Assembly: GCA_003164045.1 (NCBI GenBank)
Contig: PLRU01000034.1
Location: forward strand, 177,406-241,405
Length of the DNA: 64,000 nt
Source of the DNA: Vulcanimicrobiota bacterium
Lineage (GTDB): Bacteria; Vulcanimicrobiota; Vulcanimicrobiia; Vulcanimicrobiales; Vulcanimicrobiaceae
Direction: 5' to 3'
The position numbers and the translations under genes were made by a program. The notes below the pieces were generated by a model. The model saw only the letters and a list, made by a program, of their open reading frames with translations, had not been told where the DNA came from and ran no database searches. This document shows, one piece after another, positions 3,965 to 60,895 of the stretch (position 1 is the first letter of the stretch; each line of letters starts with the position of its first letter).

Positions 3965-5140
3965 TTAAGCGCCGACGGTAGGCAGAACGTCGTCGGGTGC
4001 GCGCTGCCATTTCTTCGGCGTACCACCTGCAGCAATTATTTCGAGTTCGCGTTGCAGGATGCGGCGCCATAACGCGATGCCCGCATCGGAGCGGCCGAGC
4101 GTTTCGGTTTCATGGTTTTCGATGCGTCCCTGACCCGCTTGGACGGCGATGTCCTGAACGCGCGCGAGTACCGGATGACGTACGTCGGCATACGGAACCT
4201 TACCGGCCCAGATGTCTTCCACGAGTGCGTTGATGTCGGGCGCAGCCGCTAACTTGGCGAAGAACTCGCGGCGCTTCGTCCAGTACGGCTCGATATCCGC
4301 ACCCGTAACGGCGACCTTGGCACTGACGAACCACTTGTGGTTCTCATCGTCCACCGGGGTGAAATGAAACGTGATCGTGGGCCAGCCGCCGATGCCGTCC
4401 ATCCCGGCTTGCGGCGGAACGATCGTGCGCACGATGTTCGGCGCGTAGTGCAACGTATAGCGCGTCAGCCCGGTAGCCCGGTTACCGAAACGCATCATGC
4501 CCCACGGCGTTTCCTCGGCCGTGATGATCGGGAGATCGATCGACAACTTAGCGTGCGAGCCGCCGGGCGCATGCGTGAACGCCACATGTACTTCGTCCAT
4601 GCTGTTCTCGAACGATTGCAGATAATTGCACGGCACCTCAGAGGGGTCCCATGCTTCGATGATTCCCTCGCCGTGCGCCTCAGGATAGGGCGGAAACGCC
4701 GGCGGTTCGTCGGGGCCGAAGAAGCCGTAGACCAAGCCGAACGCTTCGCCGGTCGGGAACGTCGCGATGCGAACGTTCTTGGCGAAGCCTTCCTTTTCGG
4801 CCGGCGCTTCGACGCACTGGCCCGAGCAGTCGTACTTCCAGCCATGGTACACGCAGCGGATGTCGTCGTTCTCGACCCAGCCGAGGTGCATCAACGCGCC
4901 GCGGTGCGGACAGCGCTGCGCAACGAGTTGCGCCCGGCCGCTCTCGCCGCGGTAGAGGGTGTAGTCTTCGTTCATCACGCGCACCGGCCGCGCGCGGCCT
5001 TTGGGCAAATCGACACTGCGGCAAATCGCGTGCCAGAACTGGCGCATGAAAATGCCGCCCGGCGTCCCGGGCTTCGTGGTTGCAAGGTCGACGCTGCTGC
5101 GCGGCTTGCGCGCCGGTGCGATACGATCGGTGACGGCCAT
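3965..5140 (-). CDS. Rieske [2Fe-2S] non-heme-iron oxygenase, alpha-only (phthalate-family type), copy A
   Basis: Rieske motif CPHRGALMHLGWVENDDIRCVYHGW and iron motif NYLQSFENSMDEVHVAFTH (D-x2-H-x4-H). The start MAVTDRIAP (ATG 5140..5138) shares one nt with the TGA of copy B (TGATG). Confidence 0.9.
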   Translation of the reverse strand: MAVTDRIAPARKPRSSVDLATTKPGTPGGIFMRQFWHAICRSVDLPKGRARPVRVMNEDYTLYRGESGRAQLVAQRCPHRGALMHLGWVENDDIRCVYHGWKYDCSGQCVEAPAEKEGFAKNVRIATFPTGEAFGLVYGFFGPDEPPAFPPYPEAHGEGIIEAWDPSEVPCNYLQSFENSMDEVHVAFTHAPGGSHAKLSIDLPIITAEETPWGMMRFGNRATGLTRYTLHYAPNIVRTIVPPQAGMDGIGGWPTITFHFTPVDDENHKWFVSAKVAVTGADIEPYWTKRREFFAKLAAAPDINALVEDIWAGKVPYADVRHPVLARVQDIAVQAGQGRIENHETETLGRSDAGIALWRRILQRELEIIAAGGTPKKWQRAPDDVLPTVGA

Positions 5141-6324
5141 CAGTGTTTCCCCGGGATGCCGACGACGGGAACGACGTCGTCGGGCGTGCGTTGCCATTTC
5201 TTCGGCGTTCCGCCGTCGGCGATGATCTGTAGTTCGCGTTCGAGAATACGGCGCCAGAGCGCGAGACCCGCATCGGAACGCCCGAGCGTCTCGGTGCTGC
5301 GGTCCTGGATGCGGCCTTGCCCGGCCTGCACGGCGATGTCCTGAACGATGGCGAGCTCCGGATGGCGCACGGTGTCGAACGGAATCTTTCCCGCCCAGAT
5401 ATCGTCCACCACGTTCTGGATACGCGGCGCGGCGGCGCGCGCGGCGTAGAACTCGGCGCGTTTTTCCTTGTAGCGCTCGACCTCGTCGCCCGTCACCTGG
5501 ACTTTGGCCGTTATGATCCAGAGATGGTTGTCGTCGTCAACCGGGGTGAAGTGGAACGTAATCTCGGGCCACCCGCCCACGCCGTCCATGCCGTAGAGGG
5601 GCGGCACGATCACGCGCACGATGTTGGGCGCGATGTGCAGCGTTTCACGCACCATGCCGCTGGCGCGCTTGCCGTGACGCAACATGCCCCACGGCGTTTC
5701 CTCGGCTGTGATGATCGGCAGATCTTTGGCGAGCGCGGCGTGCGAGCCGCCGGGACTATGCGTGAAGGCAACGTGGACTTCGTCCATGCTGTTCTCGAAC
5801 GACTGCAGGTAGTTGCACGGCACGTGTTCGACCGGCCAGCTTTCGATATACCCTTCGCCCTGCGACTCCGGATAGGGCGGAAACGCCGGCGGCTCGTCCG
5901 CTCCGAAGTAGCCGTAGATCAAGCCGAACGCTTCGCCGGTCGGGAACGTCGCGATCGAAACGTTCTTGGCGAAGCCTTCCTTTTCGGCCGGCGCCTCGAC
6001 GCACTGGCCGGTGCAGTCGTACTTCCAGCCGTGATAGACACAGCGGATGTCGTCGTTCTCGACCCAGCCGAGATGCATCAGCGCTCCGCGATGCGGGCAG
6101 CGCTGCGCGACGAGCTGTGCGCGTCCGCTCGCTCCACGGAAGAGCGTGTAGTCTTCGCTCATGACACGCACCGGAATCGCATGTCCAGGCAAAATGTCTT
6201 CGCTGCGGGCGATCGCGTGCCAGAACTGGCGCATGAACGTTCCGCCGGGCGTGCCCGGCTTCGTCGTCGTCATATCGAGTTTCGTGCGCGGGCGCGGCAG
6301 TTCGCGTTCGGTTACGGCCATCAT
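5140..6324 (-). CDS. Rieske [2Fe-2S] non-heme-iron oxygenase, alpha-only, copy B (tandem paralog)
   Basis: Same motifs as copy A (CPHRGALMHLGWVENDDIRCVYHGW; NYLQSFENSMDEVHVAFTH). It is collinear with copy A along its whole length. Confidence 0.9.
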   Translation of the reverse strand: MMAVTERELPRPRTKLDMTTTKPGTPGGTFMRQFWHAIARSEDILPGHAIPVRVMSEDYTLFRGASGRAQLVAQRCPHRGALMHLGWVENDDIRCVYHGWKYDCTGQCVEAPAEKEGFAKNVSIATFPTGEAFGLIYGYFGADEPPAFPPYPESQGEGYIESWPVEHVPCNYLQSFENSMDEVHVAFTHSPGGSHAALAKDLPIITAEETPWGMLRHGKRASGMVRETLHIAPNIVRVIVPPLYGMDGVGGWPEITFHFTPVDDDNHLWIITAKVQVTGDEVERYKEKRAEFYAARAAAPRIQNVVDDIWAGKIPFDTVRHPELAIVQDIAVQAGQGRIQDRSTETLGRSDAGLALWRRILERELQIIADGGTPKKWQRTPDDVVPVVGIPGKH

Positions 6325-29285: not shown

Positions 29286-30323
29286 TCATCCCGAGCGGGA
29301 TGACAAGGCGAGGCCGCGGATGCGGTCGCGGACGAGGGCGGCGCCGGCGTTCATGGCGCGGAGTTTGGCTAGGGCTATTTTGCCCGGGAGATGACGCAGG
29401 CCGCAATCCGGGTTGATTATCACTTGTTCCGGGTCGAGCACCGCTAGCGCGCGGTCGACGCGCGAGGCGACGAGTTCCGGCGTTTCTACGACGTCGCTCT
29501 TTACGTCGATCACGCCGAGGCCGAGCTTGAAGTCGGGATGGTATTTTTTGAAGAGCGCGACGTCGTCGTAGCCTTTGCGCGCGAATTCGAGCACCAGTTG
29601 ATCGACCTGCGCATCGAGAATTGCCGGGAAAAGAAAATCGTAGTGCCCCTCCCAGGCCGGCCGCGCGTGGCGGTTGCCGTAACAAATGTGGAGCGCCCAC
29701 TCGACGTCGATGCCTTCGACGACGAGATTGATCGCCTTCACCGCCAACGGCACTTGTTCGGGATATCCGGCTAAGAACGGCTCGTCGATCTGCAGCAGCG
29801 CCGCGCCGGCAGCGGCAAGTTCGCGGGCTTCGCGGTTGAGATGCCGCGCGATGTCCAGGACCAAGCCTTCCGCATCGGGATAGCCCTCGTTGCGAATGCG
29901 CTTCGCGAGCGAAAATGGCCCGGTGAACGAAAACTTGATCGGGCGGTCGGTTTGTTCGCGCGTAAACTGGAAGTCTTTGACTAGACGTAAGCCTTCACCG
30001 GCTTCGGGTGAGGGGAGCGGCGCATGCACGTGCGCGTCGTAATAATCGTAATAGTGCACCTTGGCTAGCGTCGGCAACTCGATGCCGGGCATACGCTCGA
30101 GGAAGTAATCGATGTCGTTGTCGCGGCGAAGTTCGCCGTCGGAAACGATGTCCACACCGGCGCGCTCTTGATCTTTGACCGCCGCTTTGATCGCGGTCTC
30201 GTAAATCTCGTTGAGCGAGGTGCGGCTGATGCGCCCTTCGTGGAAATCCGTCTTGGCGCGCTCGAGCCACTCGGGCACCGAGTACGAGCCGACAACCGTC
30301 GTCGGCAGTAGCGTCTCGCTCAC
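29286..30323 (-). CDS. short single-domain cobalamin-independent methionine synthase-like (core-MetE / UROD-fold) zinc methyltransferase
   Basis: MSETLLPTTVVGSYSVPEWL... The zinc-ligand pattern is ..ALHICYGN.. (H-x-C) and ..IINPDCGLRHLP.. At 345 aa it corresponds to the C-terminal half of MetE only. The GTG start overlaps the upstream TGA (GTGA). Confidence 0.8.
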   Translation of the reverse strand: MSETLLPTTVVGSYSVPEWLERAKTDFHEGRISRTSLNEIYETAIKAAVKDQERAGVDIVSDGELRRDNDIDYFLERMPGIELPTLAKVHYYDYYDAHVHAPLPSPEAGEGLRLVKDFQFTREQTDRPIKFSFTGPFSLAKRIRNEGYPDAEGLVLDIARHLNREARELAAAGAALLQIDEPFLAGYPEQVPLAVKAINLVVEGIDVEWALHICYGNRHARPAWEGHYDFLFPAILDAQVDQLVLEFARKGYDDVALFKKYHPDFKLGLGVIDVKSDVVETPELVASRVDRALAVLDPEQVIINPDCGLRHLPGKIALAKLRAMNAGAALVRDRIRGLALSSRSG

Positions 30324-31774
30324 TCACGCACCTCAGCGGTCATGGTCGTAATGTTGGAACCAGCGCGGAACGCGAACTTCTTGAAGCTCACGTCAAAGCC
30401 GCGCCGCCCGCCGAGCGCCGTGAGGACGTTGCCGTTGACCCAGTTCACGACCGAACCTTCGTACTTCCCGGGCCCGCGAAAACCGCTCGCATATCCCTCG
30501 AGGTTGGTCACGAAAATATCGTGGCACTCGAGCATGCCGTGCGGGTGCAAGAGCGGCAGCGTATCGACGAAGCTCGCGGCCGCACCGTTGCTGACGTGCA
30601 TGCGCACGTCGCCGTTCGCCTCCATCAGCGGGCGGAGCACTTCGCCGTTGATGCCCGAGGTGAATTCGTACTCATCGAGCGGCGGTAGCGCGACGTAGCG
30701 TTCCTCGAGCCCCAGTGCGTCCCACACCGCCGCCCAAAAGCGCACGGCCGCGTGCGCATCCGCGAAGCGCTTCGGCTCGGAATCGGCCAGCAACTCCGGG
30801 CCAAGACGCAGCAAGCGGTGGATGAGGTCGGATAATTCGTGCACGGTCGCGCCTACGGTCGGCGCGATTGCTTCGGCAGATTCGTTGGCGAGAAACGCCC
30901 GCGACTCGACTTGGAAGAGATGGCCGTCGATGCGCGCGATCTCGTCGGTCGGCAAGTTGTCGTACACGTTGGAGATGTACACGAAGAACGTCTTGTACTT
31001 GAGGAATCCGAGCGTGCTCGACGGCCGCATCGCATCGAGCACCAACGCGCTGATGTGCTCGTCATGTGCGCGCAACTGCACGCGCGCGATATCGAGCAAG
31101 TGCGACGAGTAATCGCCCATGAGGTAGTGGAGCCGGCGATAGTAGTCGCGCCCTTGCTCGCGATCGATCTCGACGAACGTATCGAGCCACACCCGGGCCT
31201 GATTGCCGTTGCCGATGCCGATCTCGAGCACGTGCAGCTGATCGGGCAACGCCCGCCGCTCGGCCAGTCCATCCCAGATCGCAAACAGCCGCAGGATCGT
31301 ATCGCGCGCACCCGCCGCGTTGCGCGCATCGCTCTCCCCGCCCGGCAACGCCTGCTCGTACGGCCGGCCCGACACTTCTTCCCAGAGGCCGAGCGACTTC
31401 CAGTACAGCGCGTTGAAGTTCCAAATCAAACTCGCCGACGTGCGGCTCCACGGTTCGAGGTAGAGCCGGTCGGGCTCGCTGCGCCGCGCGAGCGCGCGCG
31501 CCATCTCCACGGCCACGTCGTGCTTTCCGCTCGCCGCGCGCCGCAAATCGACGCCGATCTCTAGGCGTTCGCTAGCGCTGCCGTTCACGATCGCGCGCAG
31601 TTCCACCGGATCGCGGAAGCTGTTTTTGTATTGCACCCAGTCGCACACGATGCGCAGCTTCTCGAGGTCGAGCGACTCATCACCGACCGCATGCAAGATC
31701 GAACCGAGCACGCTCTGCACCACGGCGCCGTTGCCTTGGCGCAACCGATCCGTGGGCCGCAGATCAACCAACAT
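30320..31774 (-). CDS. SAM-dependent methyltransferase-fold protein, MidA/NDUFAF7 (DUF185)-like architecture
   Basis: Motif I LHVLEIGIGNGNQARVWLD, ..FVYISNVYDNLPTDEI.. (compare the family pattern aNEffDALP), and ..HPHGMLECHDIFVT.. My recollection of the family is only moderately sure. The ATG overlaps the MTHFR 3' end by 11 nt. Confidence 0.55.
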   Translation of the reverse strand: MLVDLRPTDRLRQGNGAVVQSVLGSILHAVGDESLDLEKLRIVCDWVQYKNSFRDPVELRAIVNGSASERLEIGVDLRRAASGKHDVAVEMARALARRSEPDRLYLEPWSRTSASLIWNFNALYWKSLGLWEEVSGRPYEQALPGGESDARNAAGARDTILRLFAIWDGLAERRALPDQLHVLEIGIGNGNQARVWLDTFVEIDREQGRDYYRRLHYLMGDYSSHLLDIARVQLRAHDEHISALVLDAMRPSSTLGFLKYKTFFVYISNVYDNLPTDEIARIDGHLFQVESRAFLANESAEAIAPTVGATVHELSDLIHRLLRLGPELLADSEPKRFADAHAAVRFWAAVWDALGLEERYVALPPLDEYEFTSGINGEVLRPLMEANGDVRMHVSNGAAASFVDTLPLLHPHGMLECHDIFVTNLEGYASGFRGPGKYEGSVVNWVNGNVLTALGGRRGFDVSFKKFAFRAGSNITTMTAEVRE

Positions 31775-32708
31775 GTTCGTTCACCCGCGCGTGCGCCCGC
31801 CGGCCGAGTCCGGCACGTTCGACGATTTCCGGAACGAGATGTTCGGCGCCGAACGCCATCACGTGCACGCCGGCGAGGTCCGGAATCTCGCGCAATTCGG
31901 TGATGATCTCGGCGCAAATCGTAATGCTCTCCGCGAGCACCCGGTCTTCCGGCACGCCGCGCAAGCGCTGCTCGACGGCCGGCGCGATCACGATGCCTGG
32001 AATCTGCTGCATCCGTTCGAGCGCGCGCAGCGAGCGGATCGGCCCGACGCCGGCGAGCACGCCGCAGCGTTGCGTAAGCCCAAGTTCGCGGCTCGCCTGC
32101 ATCCACGCCTTGAAGCGCGTAACGTCGAAGACATACTGCGTCTGCACGAACTCGGCGCCCGCGGCGATCTTCTTCCCTAATCGTTCGGCGCGAAAGGCGA
32201 GCGGCGGGGCGAACGGATTTTCGACGCCGCCGATCAGCCATACCGGCGGCGGCTTCAGCGTTTTTCCTGAAAGCAGCTTTCCCGAGTCGCGCATCGTGCG
32301 CGCCATCCACAAGAGCTGCACCGAATCGAGATCGAACACGCCACGCGCTTCGGGATGATCGCCGAACTTCTGATGATCGCCGGTCAGCAACAGCACGTTG
32401 GTGATCCCCAGCGCCGCCGCACCGAGCAGATCGGATTGCAGCGCCATGCGGTTGCGGTCGCGGCACTGCAGTTGCATCACCGGTTCGACGTCCTCGGCCA
32501 GCGCGATCACGGAACCGGCCCAGCTCGCGAGACGCACCATCGCGCCTTGGTTATCGGTCACGTTGGCCGCATCGACCCAGTCGTGCAACTCGCGCGCGGC
32601 TTTGCGGATCGCTTCGGCATCGGCGCCGCGCGGCGGACTCAGTTCGGCGGTAACGGCGAAACGATGCTCGCGCAGCGCGTCGCGCAGCCGGCTTCCAGCG
32701 GGGATCAA
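31764..32708 (-). CDS. metF: methylenetetrahydrofolate reductase (MetF, MetVF-type large subunit)
   Basis: ..HRFAVTAELSPPRGADAEAI...AANVTDNQGAMVRLAS...MQLQCRDRNRMALQSDLLGAAALGITNVLLLTGDH... The TTG start at 32708 overlaps the upstream TGA (TTGA). Confidence 0.85.
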   Translation of the reverse strand: MIPAGSRLRDALREHRFAVTAELSPPRGADAEAIRKAARELHDWVDAANVTDNQGAMVRLASWAGSVIALAEDVEPVMQLQCRDRNRMALQSDLLGAAALGITNVLLLTGDHQKFGDHPEARGVFDLDSVQLLWMARTMRDSGKLLSGKTLKPPPVWLIGGVENPFAPPLAFRAERLGKKIAAGAEFVQTQYVFDVTRFKAWMQASRELGLTQRCGVLAGVGPIRSLRALERMQQIPGIVIAPAVEQRLRGVPEDRVLAESITICAEIITELREIPDLAGVHVMAFGAEHLVPEIVERAGLGRRAHARVNEHVG

Positions 32709-33250
32709 CGTTGTTCGATCGGTGGCGCGGCGGCGAACGATGCGTCGGCCGTCCAGAGGCCGGCGTCGCGGTGCTGCCAGTAATTCACCCACGAGCTCTT
32801 GCCCCACTCGCGGTTGTCGATCGGCCGCTGCAAACGCCGCAAGTCGGCGGTGTGGCCGGCGCCGGCGGCTCGCTCGTACGCCACGACCCACACGCAGCGC
32901 ACGCCCGGATACACTTCACAGTCGCCGTTTGCCGCCACGCCGCCGCACGGGCCGTTGCGCAGCTGCTTTGGACAGGTCATGGGACACGCATACGCGGTGC
33001 TCGGCAACGCGCATTGGGCGCACATCCGGCAGCCGAAGAGCTTGCCTTTGACCAGCTTCTCGAGCGCCGTGAACGTCGCATAGGCCCAAGGGGTCGCCTC
33101 GAGCCAGACCGCCAGCGAGTACCAGATCCGCTTGGGCCGGAGCACCCGCTGGACCACCAGGGCAAAGGGCAGCGAGATGCCCGGCGTCGTCGGCACCGGC
33201 CGATCCCCGACGCGTTCAACCGCATCTCGTGCGTGAACGGCAGTCTCCAC
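32705..33250 (-). CDS. MTHFR C-terminal-domain / zinc-ribbon protein (MetV-like small subunit)
   Basis: Cys-rich block GCRMCAQCALPSTAYACPMTCPKQLRNGPCGGV..GDCEVYPG..CVW, typical of MetV-type partners of MetF. GTG start with a GAGGG SD. Confidence 0.75.
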   Translation of the reverse strand: METAVHARDAVERVGDRPVPTTPGISLPFALVVQRVLRPKRIWYSLAVWLEATPWAYATFTALEKLVKGKLFGCRMCAQCALPSTAYACPMTCPKQLRNGPCGGVAANGDCEVYPGVRCVWVVAYERAAGAGHTADLRRLQRPIDNREWGKSSWVNYWQHRDAGLWTADASFAAAPPIEQR

Positions 33251-33336
33251 GTGTAGCCCTCGCGTTCGTCAGGCCTATTCTCAGAGTCGTGAGCGTGCTC
33301 ATCCTGCGCCCGGGGACGTGCCTCCGCGGGGCGTAT

Positions 33337-33365
33337 TTGCGCGACGTATCACGACATGCTATAAT
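33337..33365 (+). promoter_or_regulatory. sigma-70-like promoter TTGCGC-17 nt-TATAAT
   Basis: A perfect TATAAT at 33360..33365 stands out in a GC-rich genome. It has 17-nt spacing to TTGCGC. It lies about 30 nt upstream of the ORF at 33398, which has a GGAG SD. Confidence 0.4.
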
Positions 33366-33397
33366 ACAGCCTTTCCTCTCGTTGACGTGGAGCGCAG

Positions 33398-33655
33398 ATG
33401 GAAACCTCGGATACCCAACGACGGCTCGACGCCGTGTTGCGTGCCGACGCCCAAGAGGTGGCGCGGCGTACGCTTCGCCATAAATTCGGTCGCTTGAGCA
33501 ATCGGCGGATCATTGCTACCCTCCGGGCAGCACTTCCGGCCGACCTCCAGACGGAGCTTGCCGACGGCGAGCTGCTCGACCGGTGGTTCGCCGAATACGC
33601 AACCGCCGTCGACCGCCTGCGCAGCGAACAGACCTTCTCCTCACAGGCGTCCTAG
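33398..33655 (+). CDS. small hypothetical protein (85 aa)
   Basis: ATG preceded by GGAG and by the promoter above. METSDTQRRLDAVLRADAQEVARRTLRHKFGRLSNRRIIATLRAAL.. is predicted helical. No family recognised. Confidence 0.35.
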   Translation: METSDTQRRLDAVLRADAQEVARRTLRHKFGRLSNRRIIATLRAALPADLQTELADGELLDRWFAEYATAVDRLRSEQTFSSQAS

Positions 33656-33691
33656 CCCGCACCTCGCCCCCAAACCGGCCCCAGCGAGCGC

Positions 33692-34879
33692 TTAATTAAA
33701 CGCTTGAATTCCTGTTTGGGCGCGCCCGAGGATGAGACCGTGGATGTCGTGCGTGCCCTCGTAGGTATTCACGGCCTCGAGGTTCATCACGTGGCGGATC
33801 ACGTGATATTCATCCGACACGCCGTTGCCGCCGTGCATGTCGCGCGACACGCGCGCGATCGCGAGCGACTTGCCGCACGAGTTGCGCTTGAGCAGCGAGA
33901 TCATCTCCGGCTGTTCGCGCCCTGCATCCATCAGCTGACCGAGCCGAATCGCCGCGTGCAGGCCGATCGTGATCTCCGTCTGCATGTCGGCAAGCTTGAT
34001 CTGGATGAGCTGCGTTGCGGCGAGCGGCCGGCCGAACTGCGTGCGCTCGAGGGTGTATTTGCGCGCCGCGTGCCAGCAGAATTCCGCCGCGCCGAGCGCG
34101 CCGAAGATGATGCCGTAGCGGGCGCGGTTGAGGCAGCCGAACGGGCCGGCGAGACCGCGTGCGTTCGGTAAGAGGTTGGCGTCGGGCACGAACACGTTGT
34201 CCATGCTGATCATGCCGGTGCTCGACGCGCGCAAGCTGAACTTGCCCTCGATCTTCGGCGCGGTCAGCCCTTCCATACCTTTTTCGAGAATGAAGCCGCG
34301 AATTTTGCCGGCGTCGTCTTTCGCCCACACGATGAACACGTCGGCGATCGGCGAGTTGGTGATCCAGTTCTTCGCACCGCTCAGCCGGAAACCGCCATCG
34401 ACTTTCTGCGCGCGCGACGTCATGCTGCCCGGATCCGAACCGTGATCGGGTTCGGTGAGTCCGAAGCAGCCGATCAGTTCGCCCGTGGCCAGCTTCGGCA
34501 AGAAGCGTTCGCGCTGTTCGTCGTTCCCGTAGGTAAAGATGGGGAACATCACTAGGCTCGATTGCACGGAGAGCGCCGAGCGGTACCCGCTGTCAACGCG
34601 TTCGATTTCGCGCGCGATCAAGCCGTACGCGACGTAACTCGTGCCGGCGCAGCCATAACCGTGGATCGTCGAGCCGAGCAAGCCGAGCGCGCCCATCTCG
34701 TGAAAGATCGCGCGATCGAAGATCTCGTTGCGGTTGGCTTCGAGAATGCGCGGCATAAGTTTTGACTGCGCGTAGTCGTGCGCCATGTCGCGAATCATCC
34801 GCTCTTCGTCGGTGAGCAACTCGCTTGCGAGCAGCGGATCTTCCCATTGGAAGGTTTCGATCGAAGGAAGGACGGCCAC
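33692..34879 (-). CDS. gcdH: glutaryl-CoA dehydrogenase (acyl-CoA dehydrogenase family)
   Basis: ..[43 protein letters not shown].. and the C-terminal ..[21 protein letters not shown] are typical GCDH sequence. The GTG at 34879 shares one nt with the upstream TAG. Confidence 0.9.
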
Positions 34880-54559: not shown

Positions 54560-55828
54560 TCAGAATTTCGCGAGCAGTTCGTCGCCGAGCGCTTCGCGCC
54601 ACGGGATATCGAGCGGCACCATCTTGTCGACGGCGCGCACCCGGCGGTAGGTTTCCGGATCGAGTCCGCGCGGCGTCTCACCGCGTTCGCTCGCGTCGAG
54701 CGCTTCGAGCAGCAGTTGGCGCATCGCGATGATCGCGCGGTCGCTCGTGCCGAGATGCTCCTTCGAGCGGTCGACGATCGGACCCATGCCCTCTTGCAGC
54801 GCCATGTCTTGCGTGTTGATCCCCTCGATGCCGGTGAACGTCTGCGTCTTCTGCAGCTGCCGGTCGATGAAGTAGTCGTTGCCGAGGTTTTTCTTGAGCC
54901 GGTAGCTGCCCGGGATGAGATCGGTCGGTCCGCGGCCGTACATCGTCTCGTGTTCGATCGCGTACTCCGGCGTCACCGGAATCGTTGGATCGTACGAATA
55001 CTGCCAGTTGTAGACGGCCGTCGTCGTGTCGTCGATCGCAACCCAGATGTGGCCGTTGATCGTCGGCACCTTTTCCATGCCGCCCTTGCGCCCTTGCACG
55101 CGGCCGCGCATCTGCTGCGCCGGCAGCACGTAGTGATAGGCACGCACGTATTGCTGGCCATCGATCTTGCGGATGCCGGCATACGTATAGCCGTACGCCG
55201 TCTTTTCGATCTCGAGCCGCGGCGCCGTATCGGCGTTGCGCAGATACGACTTGTTCTTGATGTCGAGGTTGTGCGCGAACGACGAGTGCGACGTGTCGAG
55301 GCCGCCCTCGAGCGCCTGCAGCCAGTTGCAATCCTCAATCGTTTTCGAGGTGTAGCGATGCGTGACGGGCGCGCGCAGCAATTCGTAGTCCGGCGGCGCG
55401 GGTTGCTGCTCGCGCGGACCGAGATAGGCCCAGAGCATTCCGCCGCCTTCCCACACGGGATACGCGGCGATCGTCACCTTCGTCTTGAAGAGCGAATCCG
55501 GCGGTTCGGAGGGCATGTCGACGCAGGTGCCGTTCTTGTCGAACTTCCAACCGTGATAGACGCAGCGCAGCCCGCACTCTTCGTTGCGGCCGAAAAACAT
55601 CGGCGCGCGGCGGTGCGGGCAGAACGCATCGACCAGACCCACGTCACCGTTGCTATCGCGAAATGCGACGAGGTCTTCGCCGAGCAAACGCACGCGCACC
55701 GGAGCGCCGTCGTTCTCCGGGAGTTCGCTCGTGAGCAGCGCGGGCTGCCAGTATCGCCGCAGCAACGTGCCCATCGGCGTTCCGGCGCCCACGCGCGTTA
55801 TCCGTTCGTTGTCTTGCGGTGTCAGCAT
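54560..55828 (-). CDS. phthalate-dioxygenase-type Rieske oxygenase (alpha-only), paralog 1
   Basis: CPHRRAPMFFGRNEECGLRCVYHGW (Rieske motif) and NWLQALEGGLDTSHSSFAH (iron site). The N-terminus MLTPQDNERITRVGAGTPMG.. is nearly identical to that of 59624..60895. Confidence 0.9.
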   Translation of the reverse strand: MLTPQDNERITRVGAGTPMGTLLRRYWQPALLTSELPENDGAPVRVRLLGEDLVAFRDSNGDVGLVDAFCPHRRAPMFFGRNEECGLRCVYHGWKFDKNGTCVDMPSEPPDSLFKTKVTIAAYPVWEGGGMLWAYLGPREQQPAPPDYELLRAPVTHRYTSKTIEDCNWLQALEGGLDTSHSSFAHNLDIKNKSYLRNADTAPRLEIEKTAYGYTYAGIRKIDGQQYVRAYHYVLPAQQMRGRVQGRKGGMEKVPTINGHIWVAIDDTTTAVYNWQYSYDPTIPVTPEYAIEHETMYGRGPTDLIPGSYRLKKNLGNDYFIDRQLQKTQTFTGIEGINTQDMALQEGMGPIVDRSKEHLGTSDRAIIAMRQLLLEALDASERGETPRGLDPETYRRVRAVDKMVPLDIPWREALGDELLAKF

Positions 55829-57960: not shown

Positions 57961-59253
57961 CTAAACGGAAATCAGCGGTGTGCCGGCGCCCGGAATCATC
58001 GCTTCGCGCACCGCTTGGTCGAACGGTACGTCTTTATCTAACAGCACCGAAGCCGAGCGCACGTGCTGGTCTTCGGGATTGAGCGCCGGCGGCGTGGTGC
58101 CGTGATCGCGCAGAGCGATCGCGGCTTGCAGCAGCCGTTCCCGCGCGGCGATAATGCCGGCGTCGCTCGTGCCGAGCCGTTCGCGCGACCGGTCTTGGAT
58201 CGCGCCCATCGATTCTTGACACGCCGCATCTTGCTGCGCAATGCCGGCGACGCCGCTGAACGTGCGGCGCTCTTTCTGCGCCTTGCGGTCGATCATGTAG
58301 TCGTTGCTCTTGTTCGCAACCGGCTTGAACGTGCCCGGAATGTTTACCGAGTGAATCCCTTGCCCGTGCTCCATGCTCTCGCGCAGTTCGTCATCGATCG
58401 GCTTCGTGGGATGCCAATAAAAGCTATACGAGAACACGTTTTCATCGTCGATCGGCACGAACGAATGTCCGCCGGTCGGGTTGTCGCCGTACGGCGGCAC
58501 CATCTGATGGAACGGCATGATGAACGGCGTCATGCGCCAGTACCAGCGGTCGTCGCGGTCACCGTTGCGGCGCGCGCCGATCGCCGTGCCGAACGGCGTC
58601 GGGGCGGTGAAGAAGATCGGCCGCGTGTCGGCCTTGATGAACTTCGGTCCTTCCGCATCTTGATGCAAGCGGTCGTGGTCGAGTTCGTAGCGGTGCAGCA
58701 CGCCGACGTGGCTCGAATCGAGCGCGCCTTCAACCGCTTGCAGCCAGTTCGACTCTTGCTCGCGCTTCGTCCAGAAGATGTTTTCAGGGGGCACCCGCAG
58801 CCAATCGAAGTTCGGCGGCGGCGGCTGGAGTTCGGGCGGCCCCATGTACGTCCACACCAAACCGCCGGCCTCGATGCACGGATAGGCCGTGAGTTTGACC
58901 TTTGCTTTGAAGTTCGATTCGGCGGGCTCCGAGGGCATGTCGACGCACTGTCCGGTGAGGTCGAACTTCCAGCCGTGATAGGGACAACGGATCCCGCATT
59001 CTTCGTTGCGCCCGAAGAAGAGCGAGACGCCGCGATGTGCGCAAAACTGATCGATCAGCCCGATGCGGCCGTCGGTATCGCGAAATGCCAGCAGATCCTC
59101 GCCCAGGATGCGGACGCGTACCTGCGGTCCGTCGGGCTCGGGGAGCTCGGTTCCGAGTAATATCGGAACCCAGTAGCGGCGCATCAGCGCGCCCATCGCC
59201 GTGCCGGGCCCGACGCGGACGAGCAACTCTTGGGCTTCCCGCGAAAGTGCCAT
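57961..59253 (-). CDS. phthalate-dioxygenase-type Rieske oxygenase (alpha-only), paralog 3
   Basis: CAHRGVSLFFGRNEECGIRCPYHGW and NWLQAVEGALDSSHVGVLH. Start MALSREAQELL (ATG 59253). Confidence 0.9.
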   Translation of the reverse strand: MALSREAQELLVRVGPGTAMGALMRRYWVPILLGTELPEPDGPQVRVRILGEDLLAFRDTDGRIGLIDQFCAHRGVSLFFGRNEECGIRCPYHGWKFDLTGQCVDMPSEPAESNFKAKVKLTAYPCIEAGGLVWTYMGPPELQPPPPNFDWLRVPPENIFWTKREQESNWLQAVEGALDSSHVGVLHRYELDHDRLHQDAEGPKFIKADTRPIFFTAPTPFGTAIGARRNGDRDDRWYWRMTPFIMPFHQMVPPYGDNPTGGHSFVPIDDENVFSYSFYWHPTKPIDDELRESMEHGQGIHSVNIPGTFKPVANKSNDYMIDRKAQKERRTFSGVAGIAQQDAACQESMGAIQDRSRERLGTSDAGIIAARERLLQAAIALRDHGTTPPALNPEDQHVRSASVLLDKDVPFDQAVREAMIPGAGTPLISV

Positions 59254-59360: not shown

Positions 59361-59627
59361 ATGACGATCCCACTTCTTCCCGACAGCGACGGCGACTGCA
59401 CCGCGAACCTGCGGTTGGCCCTGCGCAACATCAGCGACGAGGCGGTCGCGATCGACCTCGAGCGCGTGCCCTACCTCTCGTCCCAGGCCCTCACCGAGCT
59501 GGCTCGCTTCCGCCGCAAGCACAAAGACAACCGCATCACCTTGCAGCATCCCAACGCCCTGGTGCTGCGCACCCTGAACATCGTCGGTTTCAACAAGCTC
59601 TTCGCGATCGAGAACGCCGCGGCTTAG
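59361..59627 (+). CDS. small STAS-domain (anti-sigma-factor-antagonist-like) protein
   Basis: MTIPLLPDSDGDCTANLRLALRNISDEAVAIDLERVPYLSSQALTELARFRRKHKDNRITLQHPNALVLRTLNIVGFNKLFAI. The pattern (DL..V.yldSs.l..L) and the ending ..L...G....F.I resemble SpoIIAA/STAS. At 88 aa it is shorter than usual. Confidence 0.6.
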   Translation: MTIPLLPDSDGDCTANLRLALRNISDEAVAIDLERVPYLSSQALTELARFRRKHKDNRITLQHPNALVLRTLNIVGFNKLFAIENAAA

Positions 59628-60895
59628 AACTTCGCGACCAGCTCCGGCGCGAATTCCGTCTCCCACGTTTTCCCCACCGGGACGACGGCATCATACGGTC
59701 GCACGCGCTCGTAGGTCGACGGATCGACCCCGCGCGGCGCTTGCCCGTCCTCCACGGCCTTCACCGCTTCCAGCAAGAGCTGGCGGCACGCGATGATCGC
59801 CTTGTCCGTCGTTCCCAAGTGTTCTTTGGATCGATCGCAGATCGCGCCCATGCCCTCTTGCAAGGCCATGTCTTGCGTGTTGATGCCGACGATGCCGGTG
59901 TAGGTCTGCGTCTTCTGCACCGCGCGGTCGATCATGAAATCGTTCGCTAAGTTCTTCTTGAGCTTGAACGTGCCCGGGATCAGATCGTCGACGCCGCGGC
60001 CGAAGCGCGCTTCGTCCTTGGCGTGCCATTCATCCGTGATCGGAATGTTGGCATCGTAGCTCCAGACCATGTTCCAGACCCACGACGTCTCGTCGTCGAT
60101 CGGCACCCAAATGTGCCCGTCGAGACGCGGCACGTCGGCCATCCCGGTGCCCGTCCACGACGTGACGCCGCCGCGCAGCGCCTGCGCCGGCATGATGTAG
60201 TGATAGACGCGCACGTACTTACCGTCGTCGCCGAGGTTGCGCGTCGAAACGTACGTGTACCCGTAATCGGTGCGCTCGACATCGAGGCGCGGCGCGCCAT
60301 CGCGGGCGCGGACCCAGTTCTTGTCGCCGAGCTTATCGTTATGCGCGTACGACGAGTGCGCCGTATCGAGGCCGCCTTCGAGCGCCTGCAGGTAATTTGC
60401 ATCTTCGAACGTCTTGGAGATGCGCCGGTGCGTTGCGGGCGCGCGTACCCATTCGTAGTTCGGCGGCGGCGGTTGCTGCTCGCGCGGGCCCATGTAGATC
60501 CAGATGACGTCGCCGCCTTCCCAGGCCGGGTAGGCGTTGATCGTAACCTTCGTCTTGAAGAGCGAATCCGGCGGCTCCGACGGCATATCGACGCACGTGC
60601 CGTCTTTGTCGAACTTCCAGCCATGATAGACGCAGCGCAGTCCGCACTCTTCGTTGCGGCCGAAGAACATCGGCGCGCGGCGATGCGGACAGAATGCATC
60701 GACGATACCGACGTCGCCGTTCGTGTCGCGGAACGCGACCAAGTCTTCGCCCAGCAAGCGCACGCGCAGCGGCGCACCGTCGGCCTCGAGTTCGCTACTC
60801 ATCAGGGCCGGTTGCCAATACCGCCGCAACAAAGCGCCGCCCGGCGTTCCAGGTCCGACGCGCGTGAGTCGTTCGTTGTCCTGCGGTGTTAACAC
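59624..60895 (-). CDS. phthalate-dioxygenase-type Rieske oxygenase (alpha-only), paralog 2
   Basis: CPHRRAPMFFGRNEECGLRCVYHGW and NYLQALEGGLDTAHSSYAH. It is collinear with 54560..55828. Confidence 0.9.
   Translation of the reverse strand: MLTPQDNERLTRVGPGTPGGALLRRYWQPALMSSELEADGAPLRVRLLGEDLVAFRDTNGDVGIVDAFCPHRRAPMFFGRNEECGLRCVYHGWKFDKDGTCVDMPSEPPDSLFKTKVTINAYPAWEGGDVIWIYMGPREQQPPPPNYEWVRAPATHRRISKTFEDANYLQALEGGLDTAHSSYAHNDKLGDKNWVRARDGAPRLDVERTDYGYTYVSTRNLGDDGKYVRVYHYIMPAQALRGGVTSWTGTGMADVPRLDGHIWVPIDDETSWVWNMVWSYDANIPITDEWHAKDEARFGRGVDDLIPGTFKLKKNLANDFMIDRAVQKTQTYTGIVGINTQDMALQEGMGAICDRSKEHLGTTDKAIIACRQLLLEAVKAVEDGQAPRGVDPSTYERVRPYDAVVPVGKTWETEFAPELVAKF

What the first reader, a model, noticed from the sequence alone, without database searches (positions are those of the whole stretch)
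29286..33250. Four translationally coupled genes: MetV-like / MTHFR / DUF185(MidA)-like methyltransferase-fold protein / short 'core-MetE', a candidate undescribed methyl-transfer module
Seen in the sequence:
- Four minus-strand ORFs have overlapping stop and start codons. MetV-like (33250..32705) and MTHFR (32708..31764) overlap as TTGA. MTHFR and a 484-aa ORF (31774..30320) overlap by 11 nt. The 484-aa ORF and a 345-aa ORF (30323..29286) overlap as GTGA.
- The 345-aa protein is a single MetE C-terminal-type barrel with the zinc pattern H-I-C ... NPDCGL.
- The 484-aa protein has a Rossmann SAM motif (VLEIGIGNGNQ) plus ISNVYDNLP and CHDIF blocks, arranged as in MidA/NDUFAF7-type methyltransferases.

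Established knowledge:
- MetVF is the MTHFR form characterised in acetogens.
- As I recall, single-domain core-MetE homologues (the Mes families) are folate-independent methionine synthases that depend on dedicated methyl-donor partner proteins.

Inference:
- I do not know of a described arrangement in which a DUF185-like protein sits between MTHFR and a core-MetE and is coupled to both.
- It could be the missing methyl relay or partner for this core-MetE.
- Alternatively, given the surrounding aromatic-catabolic genes, the cluster could be a demethylation and C1-salvage unit, analogous in logic to ligM-metF-ligH of Sphingobium.
- I could not recognise a riboswitch in the roughly 110-nt leader (33251..33360).
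Basis: partly seen in the sequence, partly recalled or inferred. Interest (0 to 1): 0.7.

Follow-up and report, generated by a model that had tools for sequence, protein, structure and literature searches.

The report
Short MetE with unknown conserved partner
A truncated methionine synthase is always encoded just after an uncharacterised methyltransferase-like protein and usually beside the enzyme that makes methyl-folate, across hundreds of soil bacterial species, which points to an undescribed two-protein way of making methionine without vitamin B12.

Summary
Four minus-strand genes with overlapping stop and start codons encode MetV (DUF5981), MTHFR, a 484-aa protein ("X") and a 345-aa single-barrel MetE.

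- **X** has no family assignment. Its Methyltransf_28 match is below threshold and it has no PDB sequence relative. A confident model (pLDDT 88) is a class I SAM-methyltransferase fold, closest to MidA/COG1565.
- **The short MetE** keeps all zinc and homocysteine ligands. It lacks the N-terminal barrel and the pterin-stacking Trp.
- **Linkage is strongly conserved.** X occurs in at least 582 species genomes (Eremiobacterota, Chloroflexota, Binatia, Actinomycetota). In 79 of 81 loci a core-MetE orthologue follows on the same strand; the other two contigs end there.
- **MTHFR stays linked in four forms:** MetVF, fused MetV-MTHFR, mycobacterial MTHFR_2, and MTHFR(-MetV)-X fusions. One such fusion sits beside a MetH-type homocysteine-binding gene instead of MetE.
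- **Operons** often continue with MetK, SAH hydrolase, a PfkB kinase, Fhs, PurU or FolD.
- No riboswitch, corrinoid protein or DUF1852 was found, and no paper describes the arrangement.

Best reading (about 0.4): X is the obligate partner that lets the truncated MetE use MTHFR-made methyl groups. Rivals are a SAM-consuming methyltransferase or a SAM sensor. The aromatic demethylation idea is not supported.

The parts
32705..33250 (-). MetV-like small subunit of MetVF-type methylenetetrahydrofolate reductase (181 aa, GTG start)
   Evidence: Pfam DUF5981/MTHFR_C, E 1.5e-25, residues 59-145. The Cys-rich motif is readable in the translation. Orthologues lie directly upstream of MTHFR in 47 of 81 related loci.
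31764..32708 (-). MTHFR (MetF) catalytic subunit, 314 aa, TTG start overlapping the MetV stop (TTGA)
   Evidence: Pfam MTHFR, E 7e-32, full length. Best NCBIfam alignment is to the MTHFR half of the bifunctional YitJ-type model. The overlap was read. It is conserved upstream of X in 50 of 81 loci.
30320..31774 (-). X: 484-aa uncharacterised MidA-like class I methyltransferase-fold protein. Its ATG lies 11 nt inside the MTHFR gene, and its stop overlaps the core-MetE start.
   Evidence: - No Pfam, NCBIfam or PDB sequence assignment.
- AlphaFold model: pLDDT 88, pTM 0.88.
- Foldseek top hits are MidA/COG1565 structures 5zu0, 1zkd, 4g67 (E about 1e-7, TM 0.42-0.55), followed by other SAM methyltransferases.
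- Invariant in the stand-alone clade: E184-x-G186-x-G188-x-G190, D221, N269, D272-N273-L274-P275.
- At least 2456 homologous protein clusters and at least 582 species genomes.
29286..30323 (-). Core (single-barrel) MetE: 345-aa zinc-dependent homocysteine methyltransferase catalytic domain without the N-terminal barrel (GTG start, GTGA overlap with X)
   Evidence: - Pfam Meth_synt_2, E 1.2e-44, over the whole length.
- Below every NCBIfam methionine-synthase cut-off; the best is PRK04326 at 293 bits against 406.
- Best PDB sequence match is 3RPD, a MesD: 164 bits.
- Zinc ligands H212, C214, E246, C307 and homocysteine ligands S13, E64, D180 are invariant in 16 orthologues. They align with the residues named for 3RPD and E. 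coli MetE.
33251..33397 (-). Leader / intergenic region between metV and a divergent small ORF; no recognisable riboswitch
   Evidence: No Rfam match at E<=1. No sigma-70-like promoter was found. The half nearest the divergent ORF is conserved in Lustribacter relatives, and the half nearest metV is variable.

Best explanation
The four genes form a self-contained route from methylene-THF to methionine.

- MetVF reduces methylene-THF to 5-methyl-THF.
- The methyl group is then passed to zinc-activated homocysteine by a two-protein methionine synthase made of X and the truncated MetE.
- The short MetE supplies the zinc/homocysteine half-site. This is shown by its conserved residues.
- X is a MidA-like methyltransferase-fold protein. 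I infer that it is the obligate partner and supplies what this MetE lacks, namely the methyl-donor side of the active site that the N-terminal barrel and pterin-stacking loop provide in full-length MetE.
- X would therefore sit functionally between MTHFR and the homocysteine methylase. Its strictly conserved nucleotide (SAM/SAH-type) pocket probably also makes the step responsive to SAM.

Shown here: gene identities, catalytic residues of the MetE, the fold of X, and the conserved three-way genomic linkage.

Inferred: physical complex formation, methyl-THF as the ultimate donor, and what X does chemically.
For: 1. **X to core-MetE adjacency.** It holds on the same strand in 79 of 81 loci from Eremiobacterota, Binatia, Chloroflexota and Actinomycetota. 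The other two loci are cut by contig ends. Gaps are tiny or overlapping. The adjacency persists down to 41-46% identity of X.

2. **MTHFR linkage survives rearrangement.**
   - MetV-MTHFR upstream in most loci.
   - A fused MetV+MTHFR gene downstream in L093.
   - The non-homologous mycobacterial MTHFR_2 in Pseudonocardiaceae.
   - Single polypeptides MTHFR+MetV+X (P0167, P0171) and MTHFR+X (P0202).

3. **Partner swap.** In L008 the MTHFR-MetV-X fusion is translationally coupled to a stand-alone S-methyl_trans (MetH/BHMT-type zinc homocysteine-binding) gene instead of a core MetE. X therefore pairs with either of the two known homocysteine-activating modules.

4. **Operon content.** Operons continue with MetK (54 of 81), SAH hydrolase (23), Fhs (19), a PfkB kinase, PurU or FolD. 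Methionine synthase is the only step not otherwise accounted for.

5. **State of the MetE.** It keeps its zinc and homocysteine ligands but lacks the N-terminal barrel. The 'NGWV' pterin-stacking Trp segment of T. maritima MetE aligns to 'LAKV'.

6. **Precedent.** Every characterised or genetically analysed core MetE depends on a separate methyl-donor partner (PMC7857596).

7. **No alternative partner nearby.** The annotated neighbourhoods contain no corrinoid protein, DUF1852 or Meth_synt_1 partner gene.

8. **Conservation and co-variation.** X is as conserved as a core metabolic enzyme, at 53-60% identity between phyla. Its distance matrix tracks that of the MetE best: r = 0.91 against 0.64-0.87 for other pairs.
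Against: - No class I methyltransferase-fold protein is known to me to use methyl-THF as a donor.
- The canonical SAM-binding motifs of X are under strict selection: E-x-G-x-G-x-G, the acidic residue after strand 2, and motif IV. This is most simply read as SAM/SAH binding, which a pure folate-relay role does not need.
- SAM itself cannot be the net methyl source for methionine synthesis.
- Deep-branching X-like domains fused to divergent MTHFR-like domains in Gemmatimonadaceae, and the MTHFR+X fusion P0202, have no homocysteine methyltransferase next to them. The MetE link may therefore be clade-specific.
- It is not excluded that this core MetE uses methyl-THF unaided.
- The correlation advantage is modest.
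Confidence: 0.4

Rival explanations
1. X is an ordinary SAM-dependent methyltransferase acting on an unidentified small molecule or protein, possibly one of its neighbours, as MidA methylates NDUFS2. The cluster is then an activated-methyl-cycle operon that resupplies SAM for it, and the short MetE works alone with methyl-THF.
For: - All canonical SAM-binding motifs of class I methyltransferases are invariant in the stand-alone clade.
- The fold is closest to the protein arginine methyltransferase MidA.
- Many operons contain the whole methyl cycle: MTHFR, MetE, MetK, SAH hydrolase and a PfkB kinase.
- From my own knowledge, high-flux methyltransferases such as the glycine/sarcosine methyltransferases of betaine synthesis are sometimes clustered with metK or ahcY.
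Against: - The tightest partner of X is the MetE (79 of 81 loci). MetK (54) and SAH hydrolase (23), which a SAM consumer needs most directly, are less constant.
- In the window and its relatives only MetVF, X and MetE are present.
- No substrate-pathway genes are conserved nearby.
- Fusion of a consumer methyltransferase to MTHFR would be unexpected.
- Characterised core MetEs do not use methyl-THF on their own (PMC7857596).
Confidence: 0.25
2. X is a SAM/SAH-sensing regulatory subunit. It would be a bacterial analogue, built on a different fold, of the C-terminal SAM-binding regulatory domain of eukaryotic MTHFR. It throttles MTHFR, and perhaps the MetE, according to the SAM level, without taking part in methyl transfer.
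For: - X-like domains are fused C-terminally to MTHFR or MTHFR-MetV in several lineages. By position this mirrors the catalytic-plus-regulatory layout of eukaryotic MTHFR (my own knowledge).
- The deepest-branching relatives keep the MTHFR link rather than the MetE link.
- The SAM-type pocket is conserved.
Against: - When MTHFR and MetE separate, X stays with the MetE. L005 and L056 have no MTHFR within about 7 kb, in L043 another gene lies between, and in L093 the order is X-MetE-MetVF.
- The fused forms have lost the second and third glycines of motif I.
- A 484-aa protein with many invariant Trp, Arg, His and Asp residues outside the nucleotide pocket looks more like an enzyme or a composite active-site subunit.
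- This reading leaves the missing folate half-site of the MetE unexplained.
Confidence: 0.2
3. Onium-donor shuttle. X uses SAM to make a sulfonium or ammonium methyl donor, for example S-methylmethionine. The short MetE, or in L008 the S-methyl_trans protein, uses that donor to methylate homocysteine. This would be an SMM-type cycle for SAM and methionine homeostasis.
For: In L008, X pairs with a PF02574 protein. Characterised members of that family (MmuM, HMT, BHMT) use sulfonium or ammonium donors (my own knowledge). The SAM pocket of X is conserved.
Against: The cycle is net futile, giving no net methionine, so it does not explain the universal MTHFR linkage and fusions. X shows no similarity to known methionine S-methyltransferases in any library searched.
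Confidence: 0.07
4. The cluster is a demethylation and C1-salvage unit serving the surrounding aromatic catabolism. It would be analogous to ligM-metF-ligH and run from methylated substrate to methyl-THF and then oxidised C1.
For: The window is rich in aromatic-catabolic genes: five LigXa-like Rieske oxygenase paralogues and a ring-hydroxylating beta subunit. PurU occurs in a few related operons. One related locus has a LigXa-like gene two genes upstream.
Against: - The aromatic neighbours are not conserved with the cluster in other lineages.
- The conserved companions are MetK, SAH hydrolase, a PfkB kinase, Fhs and FolD.
- The MetE keeps all homocysteine/methionine-binding residues.
- No LigM/GcvT-type demethylase is present.
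Confidence: 0.03

Closest known systems
MesD/MesX (core methionine synthase plus DUF1852 partner of aerobic bacteria; Price et al. 2021, PMC7857596)
   Same: - A single-barrel MetE with intact zinc and homocysteine ligands, encoded next to an uncharacterised partner protein.
- Occurs in aerobic bacteria, with no corrinoid protein involved.
- The MesD structure 3RPD is the closest solved sequence relative of the window's MetE (164 bits).
   Different: - The partner is an unrelated MidA-like methyltransferase-fold protein, not DUF1852.
- No PF08908 gene appears in any neighbourhood.
- The MetE scores only 195 bits against a cut-off of 392 on PRK09121, the NCBIfam model I take, from memory, to be the MesD one.
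- MesD does not need methyl-THF, whereas this system is persistently linked or fused to MTHFR.
Split MetE of archaea (separate Meth_synt_1 and Meth_synt_2 subunits; PMC7857596)
   Same: A catalytic Meth_synt_2 subunit is encoded beside a separate subunit predicted to supply the methyl-pterin side. The best NCBIfam model for the window's MetE is PRK04326, which I believe, from memory and untested, covers such archaeal catalytic subunits.
   Different: The partner here has no Meth_synt_1 similarity at all and has a Rossmann-type methyltransferase fold instead of a TIM barrel.
Canonical two-barrel MetE (E. coli, T. maritima, A. thaliana)
   Same: The same catalytic barrel and zinc site (H-x-C, E, C), and the same Ser/Glu/Asp homocysteine ligands. 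It is cobalamin-independent, and methyl-THF is the likely ultimate donor.
   Different: There is no N-terminal barrel. The Trp-containing folate loop is not conserved. An extra, unrelated 484-aa protein is always co-encoded.
MidA / NDUFAF7 (COG1565, Pfam Methyltransf_28) protein arginine methyltransferases
   Same: This is the best structural match of X. It shares a class I fold with motif I and an N-x-x-D-x-L-P type motif IV, and it acts as a factor dedicated to one partner protein.
   Different: Sequence similarity is below the Pfam threshold, identity in structural alignments is about 10%, and TM-scores are only 0.42-0.55. X has a different N-terminal domain and extra motifs: WxFNxxYW, LHPxG and GPGKYxGSxVNWxNG. 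Its genomic context is methionine/C1 metabolism rather than complex I.
MetVF-type MTHFR of acetogens (PMC8760232)
   Same: A MetF catalytic subunit plus a Cys-rich MetV subunit, encoded by overlapping genes.
   Different: Here it is found in aerobic soil lineages, coupled to methionine synthesis genes rather than the Wood-Ljungdahl pathway. The electron donor is unknown.
YitJ-type bifunctional homocysteine S-methyltransferase/MTHFR and modular MetH
   Same: They share the logic of joining MTHFR or a methyl-folate module to a zinc homocysteine-activating module. A YitJ-like gene lies divergently next to 13 of the 81 surveyed loci.
   Different: They contain no X-like domain. MetH needs cobalamin as the intermediate methyl carrier.

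Membership tests
Cobalamin-independent methionine synthase catalytic domain (Meth_synt_2 / MetE C-terminal barrel) | Pfam PF01717 match above the gathering score over the full domain | tested here: met
   153 bits against a cut-off of 21; residues 6-328 match profile positions 1-322 of 324.
Cobalamin-independent methionine synthase catalytic domain (Meth_synt_2 / MetE C-terminal barrel) | Zinc ligands His-x-Cys, Glu, Cys (E. coli H641, C643, E665, C726) and homocysteine ligands Ser, Glu, Asp (S433, E484, D599) | tested here: met
   H212, C214, E246, C307 and S13, E64, D180 are invariant in 16 orthologues. They align to the corresponding residues of 3RPD, whose Ser22/Glu73/Asp188 are the ligands named in PMC7857596.
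Canonical (two-barrel) MetE | N-terminal Meth_synt_1 barrel in the same polypeptide | tested here: not met
   The protein is 345 aa and the Meth_synt_2 match covers all of it. The only Meth_synt_1 signal is a sub-threshold cross-match inside the same barrel (21.8 bits against 27). It is also far below the NCBIfam MetE cut-offs (110 against 541 bits).
MesD (Price et al. 2021) | Close similarity to ACIAD3523 (at least about 55% identity) and adjacency to a DUF1852 (MesX) gene | tested here: not met
   Only 164 bits to the MesD structure 3RPD. PRK09121 scores 195 bits against a cut-off of 392. No DUF1852 gene is present in the window flanks or in the annotated related neighbourhoods.
MesA / MesB / MesC | Membership score to the family, plus a host with a corrinoid methyl-donor protein (MtrA or CoFeSP) and an anaerobic Wood-Ljungdahl or methanogenic lifestyle | tested here: not met
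   PRK00957 scores 175 bits against 258 and PRK06052 scores 17 bits against 387. My assignment of those models to MesA and MesC is from memory. No corrinoid-protein gene lies in any annotated neighbourhood. Hosts include aerobic Pseudonocardia and Actinophytocola isolates. Whole-genome content could not be checked.
Split MetE | Adjacent gene encoding a Meth_synt_1 (N-terminal barrel) subunit | tested here: not met
   The adjacent, coupled gene is X, which has no Meth_synt_1 match. The same holds in 79 of 81 related loci.
MidA / NDUFAF7 (Pfam Methyltransf_28, COG1565) | Pfam PF02636 match above the gathering score | tested here: not met
   18.6 bits against 23.3, covering residues 166-289 only. 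A minority of homologues carry a weak precomputed PF02636 hit.
MidA / NDUFAF7 (Pfam Methyltransf_28, COG1565) | Overall fold like the solved MidA/COG1565 structures | tested here: inconclusive
   These structures are the top Foldseek hits (5zu0, 1zkd, 4g67, 4f3n; E about 1e-7). However, TM-scores are only 0.42-0.55, rmsd is 7.5-8.5 Å and identity is 9-13%.
MidA / NDUFAF7 (Pfam Methyltransf_28, COG1565) | SAM-dependent protein arginine methylation | not testable with these tools
   Needs biochemistry.
Class I (Rossmann-fold) SAM-dependent methyltransferases | Seven-strand fold with motif I (E/D-x-G-x-G-x-G), an acidic residue at the end of strand 2, and motif IV | tested here: met
   - The model has pLDDT 88.
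- 140 PDB matches have E<=1e-3, and the hits listed after MidA are mostly SAM methyltransferases.
- E184, G186, G188, G190, D221, N269, D272, N273, L274 and P275 are invariant.
- A marginal profile match to the PsoF methyltransferase core is in register with these motifs.
- Actual SAM binding was not tested.
MetVF-type MTHFR | MetF (PF02219) plus a separate Cys-rich MetV (PF12225) subunit encoded together | tested here: met
   Both Pfam matches are well above threshold. The genes overlap by 4 nt. Cofactors and electron donor cannot be tested here.

The most novel reading that the evidence does not exclude
X is the first example of a methyltransferase-fold protein that handles methyl-tetrahydrofolate. 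It takes the methyl group, or the methyl-folate itself, from a co-encoded or fused MTHFR and presents it to a stand-alone homocysteine-activating module, which is either a core MetE or a MetH-type Hcy domain.

That would define a fifth, folate-dependent but B12-independent class of partner-dependent methionine synthase. It would be widespread in Chloroflexota, Actinomycetota, Eremiobacterota and Binatia.
Probability: 0.3. Interest if true: 0.85.

Novelty: new variant of a known kind. Interest (0 to 1): 0.72.

Why it matters
Methionine synthase determines whether an organism depends on vitamin B12. How the truncated 'core' MetE enzymes obtain their methyl groups is an open question: the donor for MesD/MesX is still unknown.

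- This locus defines a large, sharply delimited and apparently undescribed gene pair, present in at least 582 species genomes and about 2,400 protein clusters. It occurs in dominant but poorly studied soil phyla and also in cultured Pseudonocardia and Actinophytocola strains.
- The partner is tied by fusion to the enzyme that makes methyl-THF, which makes the donor question directly testable.
- If X is required, pathway-reconstruction tools that now either miss methionine synthesis or call the short MetE a complete synthase in these lineages would need a new rule. Predictions of B12 dependence in soil communities would change.
- If X turns out to be a SAM sensor or a dedicated protein methyltransferase, it would still be a new control element of the bacterial methyl cycle.

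Tried and rejected
- **Riboswitch in the leader.** Rfam at E<=1 on 32900-33800 found nothing. Rfam at gathering thresholds on nine related loci from four phyla found nothing. There is no B12 or SAM riboswitch to exploit as evidence.
- **Promoter and terminator scan.** Uninformative: 0 promoters, and 2 terminator-like sites inside genes, which is below the shuffled expectation.
- **Sequence search of X against the PDB.** Neither the single sequence nor the profile gave a significant hit.
- **X + core-MetE complex.** I attempted a linker-joined, paired alignment of 16 loci.
- **Plasmid collection.** No homologue of X.
- **MetE-fusion of Phaeocystis (PMC10861871).** It is a different architecture (PP-binding plus CzcO-type oxidoreductase domains) and unrelated to X.
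- **Glycine-betaine-linked methionine synthesis paper (PMC12478193).** It only mentions core-MetE homologues of unknown function.
- **Literature searches.** Searches for Methyltransf_28/DUF185/COG1565/MidA with methionine synthase, and for MetVF gene clusters, found no description of this arrangement.
- **Catalytic Cys in the CHD motif of X.** Rejected as universal. C417 is Asn in one orthologue and is Leu, Ile or Val in the fused forms; only D419 is invariant.
- **SAH/SAM bound to X as a catalytic methyl carrier between methyl-THF and homocysteine.** Rejected on thermodynamic grounds (my own estimate: forming a sulfonium from methyl-THF is strongly uphill).
- **Mirror-tree comparison.** It gives only weak discrimination.

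Full report
**1.

ORF listing and direct reading of the minus strand confirm four consecutive genes:

| Gene | Coordinates | Length | Start codon |
|---|---|---|---|
| MetV-like | 33250..32705 | 181 aa | GTG |
| MTHFR | 32708..31764 | 314 aa | TTG |
| X | 31774..30320 | 484 aa | ATG |
| Short MetE | 30323..29286 | 345 aa | GTG |

MetV/MTHFR read TTGA, MTHFR and X overlap by 11 nt, and X/MetE read GTGA.
- Pfam gives DUF5981 (MTHFR C-terminal, E 1.5e-25), MTHFR (7e-32) and Meth_synt_2 (1.2e-44, whole length).
- X gets only a sub-threshold Methyltransf_28 match (18.6 bits against 23.3).
- NCBIfam has no model for X or MetV. It places the short MetE below the cut-off of every methionine-synthase model; the best is PRK04326 at 293 bits against 406.
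- The leader has no Rfam match.
- Flanking genes are unrelated catabolic genes: a LysR regulator, an ABM monooxygenase, an enolase-superfamily enzyme, an acyl-CoA dehydrogenase, a ring-hydroxylating dioxygenase beta subunit and an SDR.
- The closest relatives of X are MAGs of Candidatus Lustribacter / Eremiobacterota, at 83-96% identity. The window very probably comes from that lineage.

**2. The short MetE**

- It is one catalytic barrel.
- Zinc ligands H212, C214, E246 and C307 are invariant in 16 orthologues from four phyla. So are the three side chains that bind the amino-acid end of homocysteine: S13, E64 and D180.
- These residues align with the residues named for E. coli MetE and for the MesD structure 3RPD in Price et al..
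- 3RPD is its best solved relative, but only at 164 bits.
- Against T. maritima MetE, the 'NGWV' segment that carries the pterin-stacking Trp (my recollection of the MetE structures) aligns with 'LAKV'.
- So the homocysteine/zinc half-site is intact, and the folate side of a canonical MetE is missing.
- It is not MesD, because there is no DUF1852 neighbour and the score is low. It is not a split MetE, because there is no Meth_synt_1 partner. It shows no link to corrinoid proteins.

**3. Protein X**

- Neither the single sequence nor a profile finds a significant PDB relative.
- An AlphaFold model from 25 homologues is confident: pLDDT 88, pTM 0.88.
- Foldseek puts the MidA/COG1565 structures first (5zu0, 1zkd, 4g67, 4f3n; E about 1e-7, TM 0.42-0.55, 9-13% identity). 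Other class I SAM methyltransferases follow.
- The stand-alone clade keeps a textbook SAM pocket: E184-x-G186-x-G188-x-G190, D221 at the end of strand 2, D247-A248, and N269-x-x-D272-N273-L274-P275.
- Family-specific motifs are conserved even in the most distant relatives: W118-x-F-N-x-x-Y-W125, F-W347...L-E-E-R-Y, L-H410-P-x-G413, D419 and G-P-G-K-Y-x-G-S-x-V-N-W-x-N447.
- X is therefore MidA-like in fold but not a member of Pfam Methyltransf_28 by score. Its function cannot be read from homology.

**4. Conservation of the arrangement**

- X has at least 2456 homologous protein clusters in the large protein collection. It has 658 representative clusters at 50% identity.
- It is found in at least 582 GTDB species genomes. 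These include cultured Pseudonocardia yunnanensis, P. alaniniphila and Actinophytocola sp..
- I surveyed 81 distinct loci by tblastn:

| Gene near X | Loci (of 81) |
|---|---|
| Core-MetE orthologue (58-90% identity), directly downstream on the same strand | 79 (the other two contigs end there) |
| MetK | 54 |
| MetF-type MTHFR | 50 |
| MetV | 47 |
| SAH hydrolase | 23 |
| Formate-THF ligase | 19 |
| Mycobacterial-type MTHFR_2 | 10 |
| PurU | 8 |

- Gaps between the tblastn matches to X and to the MetE have a median of about 25 nt and are often zero or negative.
- In Pseudonocardiaceae the operon reads MTHFR_2, a small ORF, X, core MetE, MetK, PfkB kinase, SAH hydrolase, Fhs. That is the whole activated methyl cycle, with a non-homologous MTHFR in place of MetVF.
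- More distant X homologues keep the trio in shuffled forms. One has MetV-MTHFR-X-MetE-FolD. One has X-MetE followed by a fused MetV+MTHFR gene. One has X-MetE-MTHFR-like. One, at 37% identity, has X beside a convergent MTHFR.

**5. Fusions**

- The representative search revealed single polypeptides MTHFR+MetV+X (P0167, 1194 aa; P0171, 1232 aa) and MTHFR+X (P0202, 891 aa).
- It also revealed a clade in Gemmatimonadaceae, Planctomycetota and Elusimicrobiota. There the N-terminal 370-470 residues are a divergent MTHFR-like domain.
- The P0171 gene overlaps the end of a stand-alone S-methyl_trans gene, the MetH/BHMT-type zinc homocysteine-binding domain.
- X thus occurs with either of the two known homocysteine-activating modules, and always with an MTHFR.
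- The deep fusions of Gemmatimonadaceae and P0202 have no homocysteine methyltransferase next to them. They have also lost the second and third glycines of motif I. They may do something different.

**6. Interpretation**

- Gene order, translational coupling, fusion and partner replacement all place X between MTHFR and the homocysteine methylase.
- Every characterised or genetically analysed core MetE relies on a separate methyl-donor partner (PMC7857596).
- This core MetE has no other candidate partner nearby.
- I therefore favour (about 0.4) the reading that X plus the short MetE form a two-protein, B12-independent methionine synthase fed by MTHFR. X would supply the donor side that the N-terminal barrel supplies in canonical MetE.
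- The weak point is chemistry. I know of no methyltransferase-fold protein that uses methyl-THF, and the SAM-type pocket of X is under strict selection.
- Hence two serious rivals:
  - X may be a genuine SAM-dependent methyltransferase for which the operon recycles SAH (0.25). This is weakened because its tightest partner is the MetE rather than MetK or SAH hydrolase, and by the fusion to MTHFR.
  - X may be a SAM sensor controlling MTHFR, like the eukaryotic regulatory domain (0.2). This is weakened because X follows the MetE when MTHFR is elsewhere.
- An S-methylmethionine-type shuttle (0.07) is net futile.

**7. Regulation**

- No riboswitch was found in the window or in nine related loci.
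- In Lustribacter relatives, a small divergent ORF and the adjoining part of the intergenic region are conserved. The part next to metV is not.
- In 13 of the 81 surveyed loci, among them Chloroflexota and Actinomycetota, a YitJ-like S-methyl_trans+MTHFR gene and a PucR-type regulator lie divergently upstream.

**8. Novelty**

- Full-text searches found no description of this partner or arrangement. The terms were core/folate-independent methionine synthases, Methyltransf_28/DUF185/COG1565/MidA with methionine synthase, and MetVF gene clusters.
- The MetE-fusion of Phaeocystis is a different architecture.
- I class this as a new variant of a known kind: a partner-dependent core methionine synthase with a new partner family and, unlike MesA-D, a persistent link to MTHFR.

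**9. Limits**

- Whole-genome content, meaning the presence of MetH or full-length MetE in the same organisms, could not be examined.
- My assignment of NCBIfam PRK models to the Mes families is from memory.
- The literature library does not cover most subscription journals.

Noticed in passing
window 33398-33655 (+) and intergenic 33251-33397: An 85-aa ORF with no Pfam match lies divergent from metV. The ORF and the adjoining intergenic stretch (...CTCCACGTCAACGAGAGGAAAG...TATTATAGCATGTCGTGATA) are conserved in four of the five Eremiobacterota relatives aligned (L010, L011, L012, L020; L009 differs upstream). It may be a small regulator or a shared promoter region.
   Followed up: partly
L010, L011, L012, L020: about 30-60 nt upstream of metV (alignment A4, columns 270-290): The palindrome-like motif ATTGAATAnGCTCAAT is conserved upstream of metV in four relatives. 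It is absent at the same place in the window and in L009. It could be a regulator-binding site that is not universal.
   Followed up: no
window 54563-55828, 59627-60895, 57997-59247, 4013-5122, 5200-6273 (all minus strand): Five paralogues of a LigXa-like Rieske oxygenase (30-65% identity to the L005 protein, which carries Rieske + LigXa_C domains). The window is rich in aromatic or O-demethylation-type oxygenases that are unrelated to the met cluster.
   Followed up: no
L006 6001-8565 (Gemmatimonadaceae), L089 6001-8676; proteins P0267, P0270, P0251, P0202: A deep-branching clade of 850-980-aa proteins fuses a very divergent MTHFR-like domain to an X-like domain that has lost the second and third glycines of motif I. 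In L006 the gene overlaps an HpcH/HpaI aldolase gene upstream and a Laminin_G_3 gene downstream. L006 and L089 have no homocysteine methyltransferase nearby. Function unknown.
   Followed up: partly
L001 2688-6112, L003 2910-6224 and 11 further loci: A YitJ-like bifunctional S-methyl_trans+MTHFR gene and a GGDEF_2/HTH_30 (PucR-type) regulator lie divergently upstream of the metV-metF-X-metE operon in Chloroflexota and several Actinomycetota. This suggests a shared regulon.
   Followed up: no
L004 10481-12669 (minus strand); L001 14789-15979; L064, L068, L074 upstream: Additional distant Meth_synt_2 paralogues (22-34% identity to the X-linked MetE) sit close to the cluster in several genomes. 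Their role is unknown.
   Followed up: no
L043 5577-6176 (and 9 other Pseudonocardiaceae loci): A conserved 199-aa ORF with a weak 2OG-Fe(II) oxygenase match lies between the mycobacterial-type MTHFR_2 gene and X. About 800 nt of unassigned sequence follows before X.
   Followed up: no
L005 5283-7998: In one relative (63% identity) X-core MetE is preceded by a LigXa-like Rieske oxygenase and a 481-aa protein with a signal-peptide-like N-terminus, instead of MetVF. This is probably coincidental, but it is the only locus that hints at a demethylation context.
   Followed up: no
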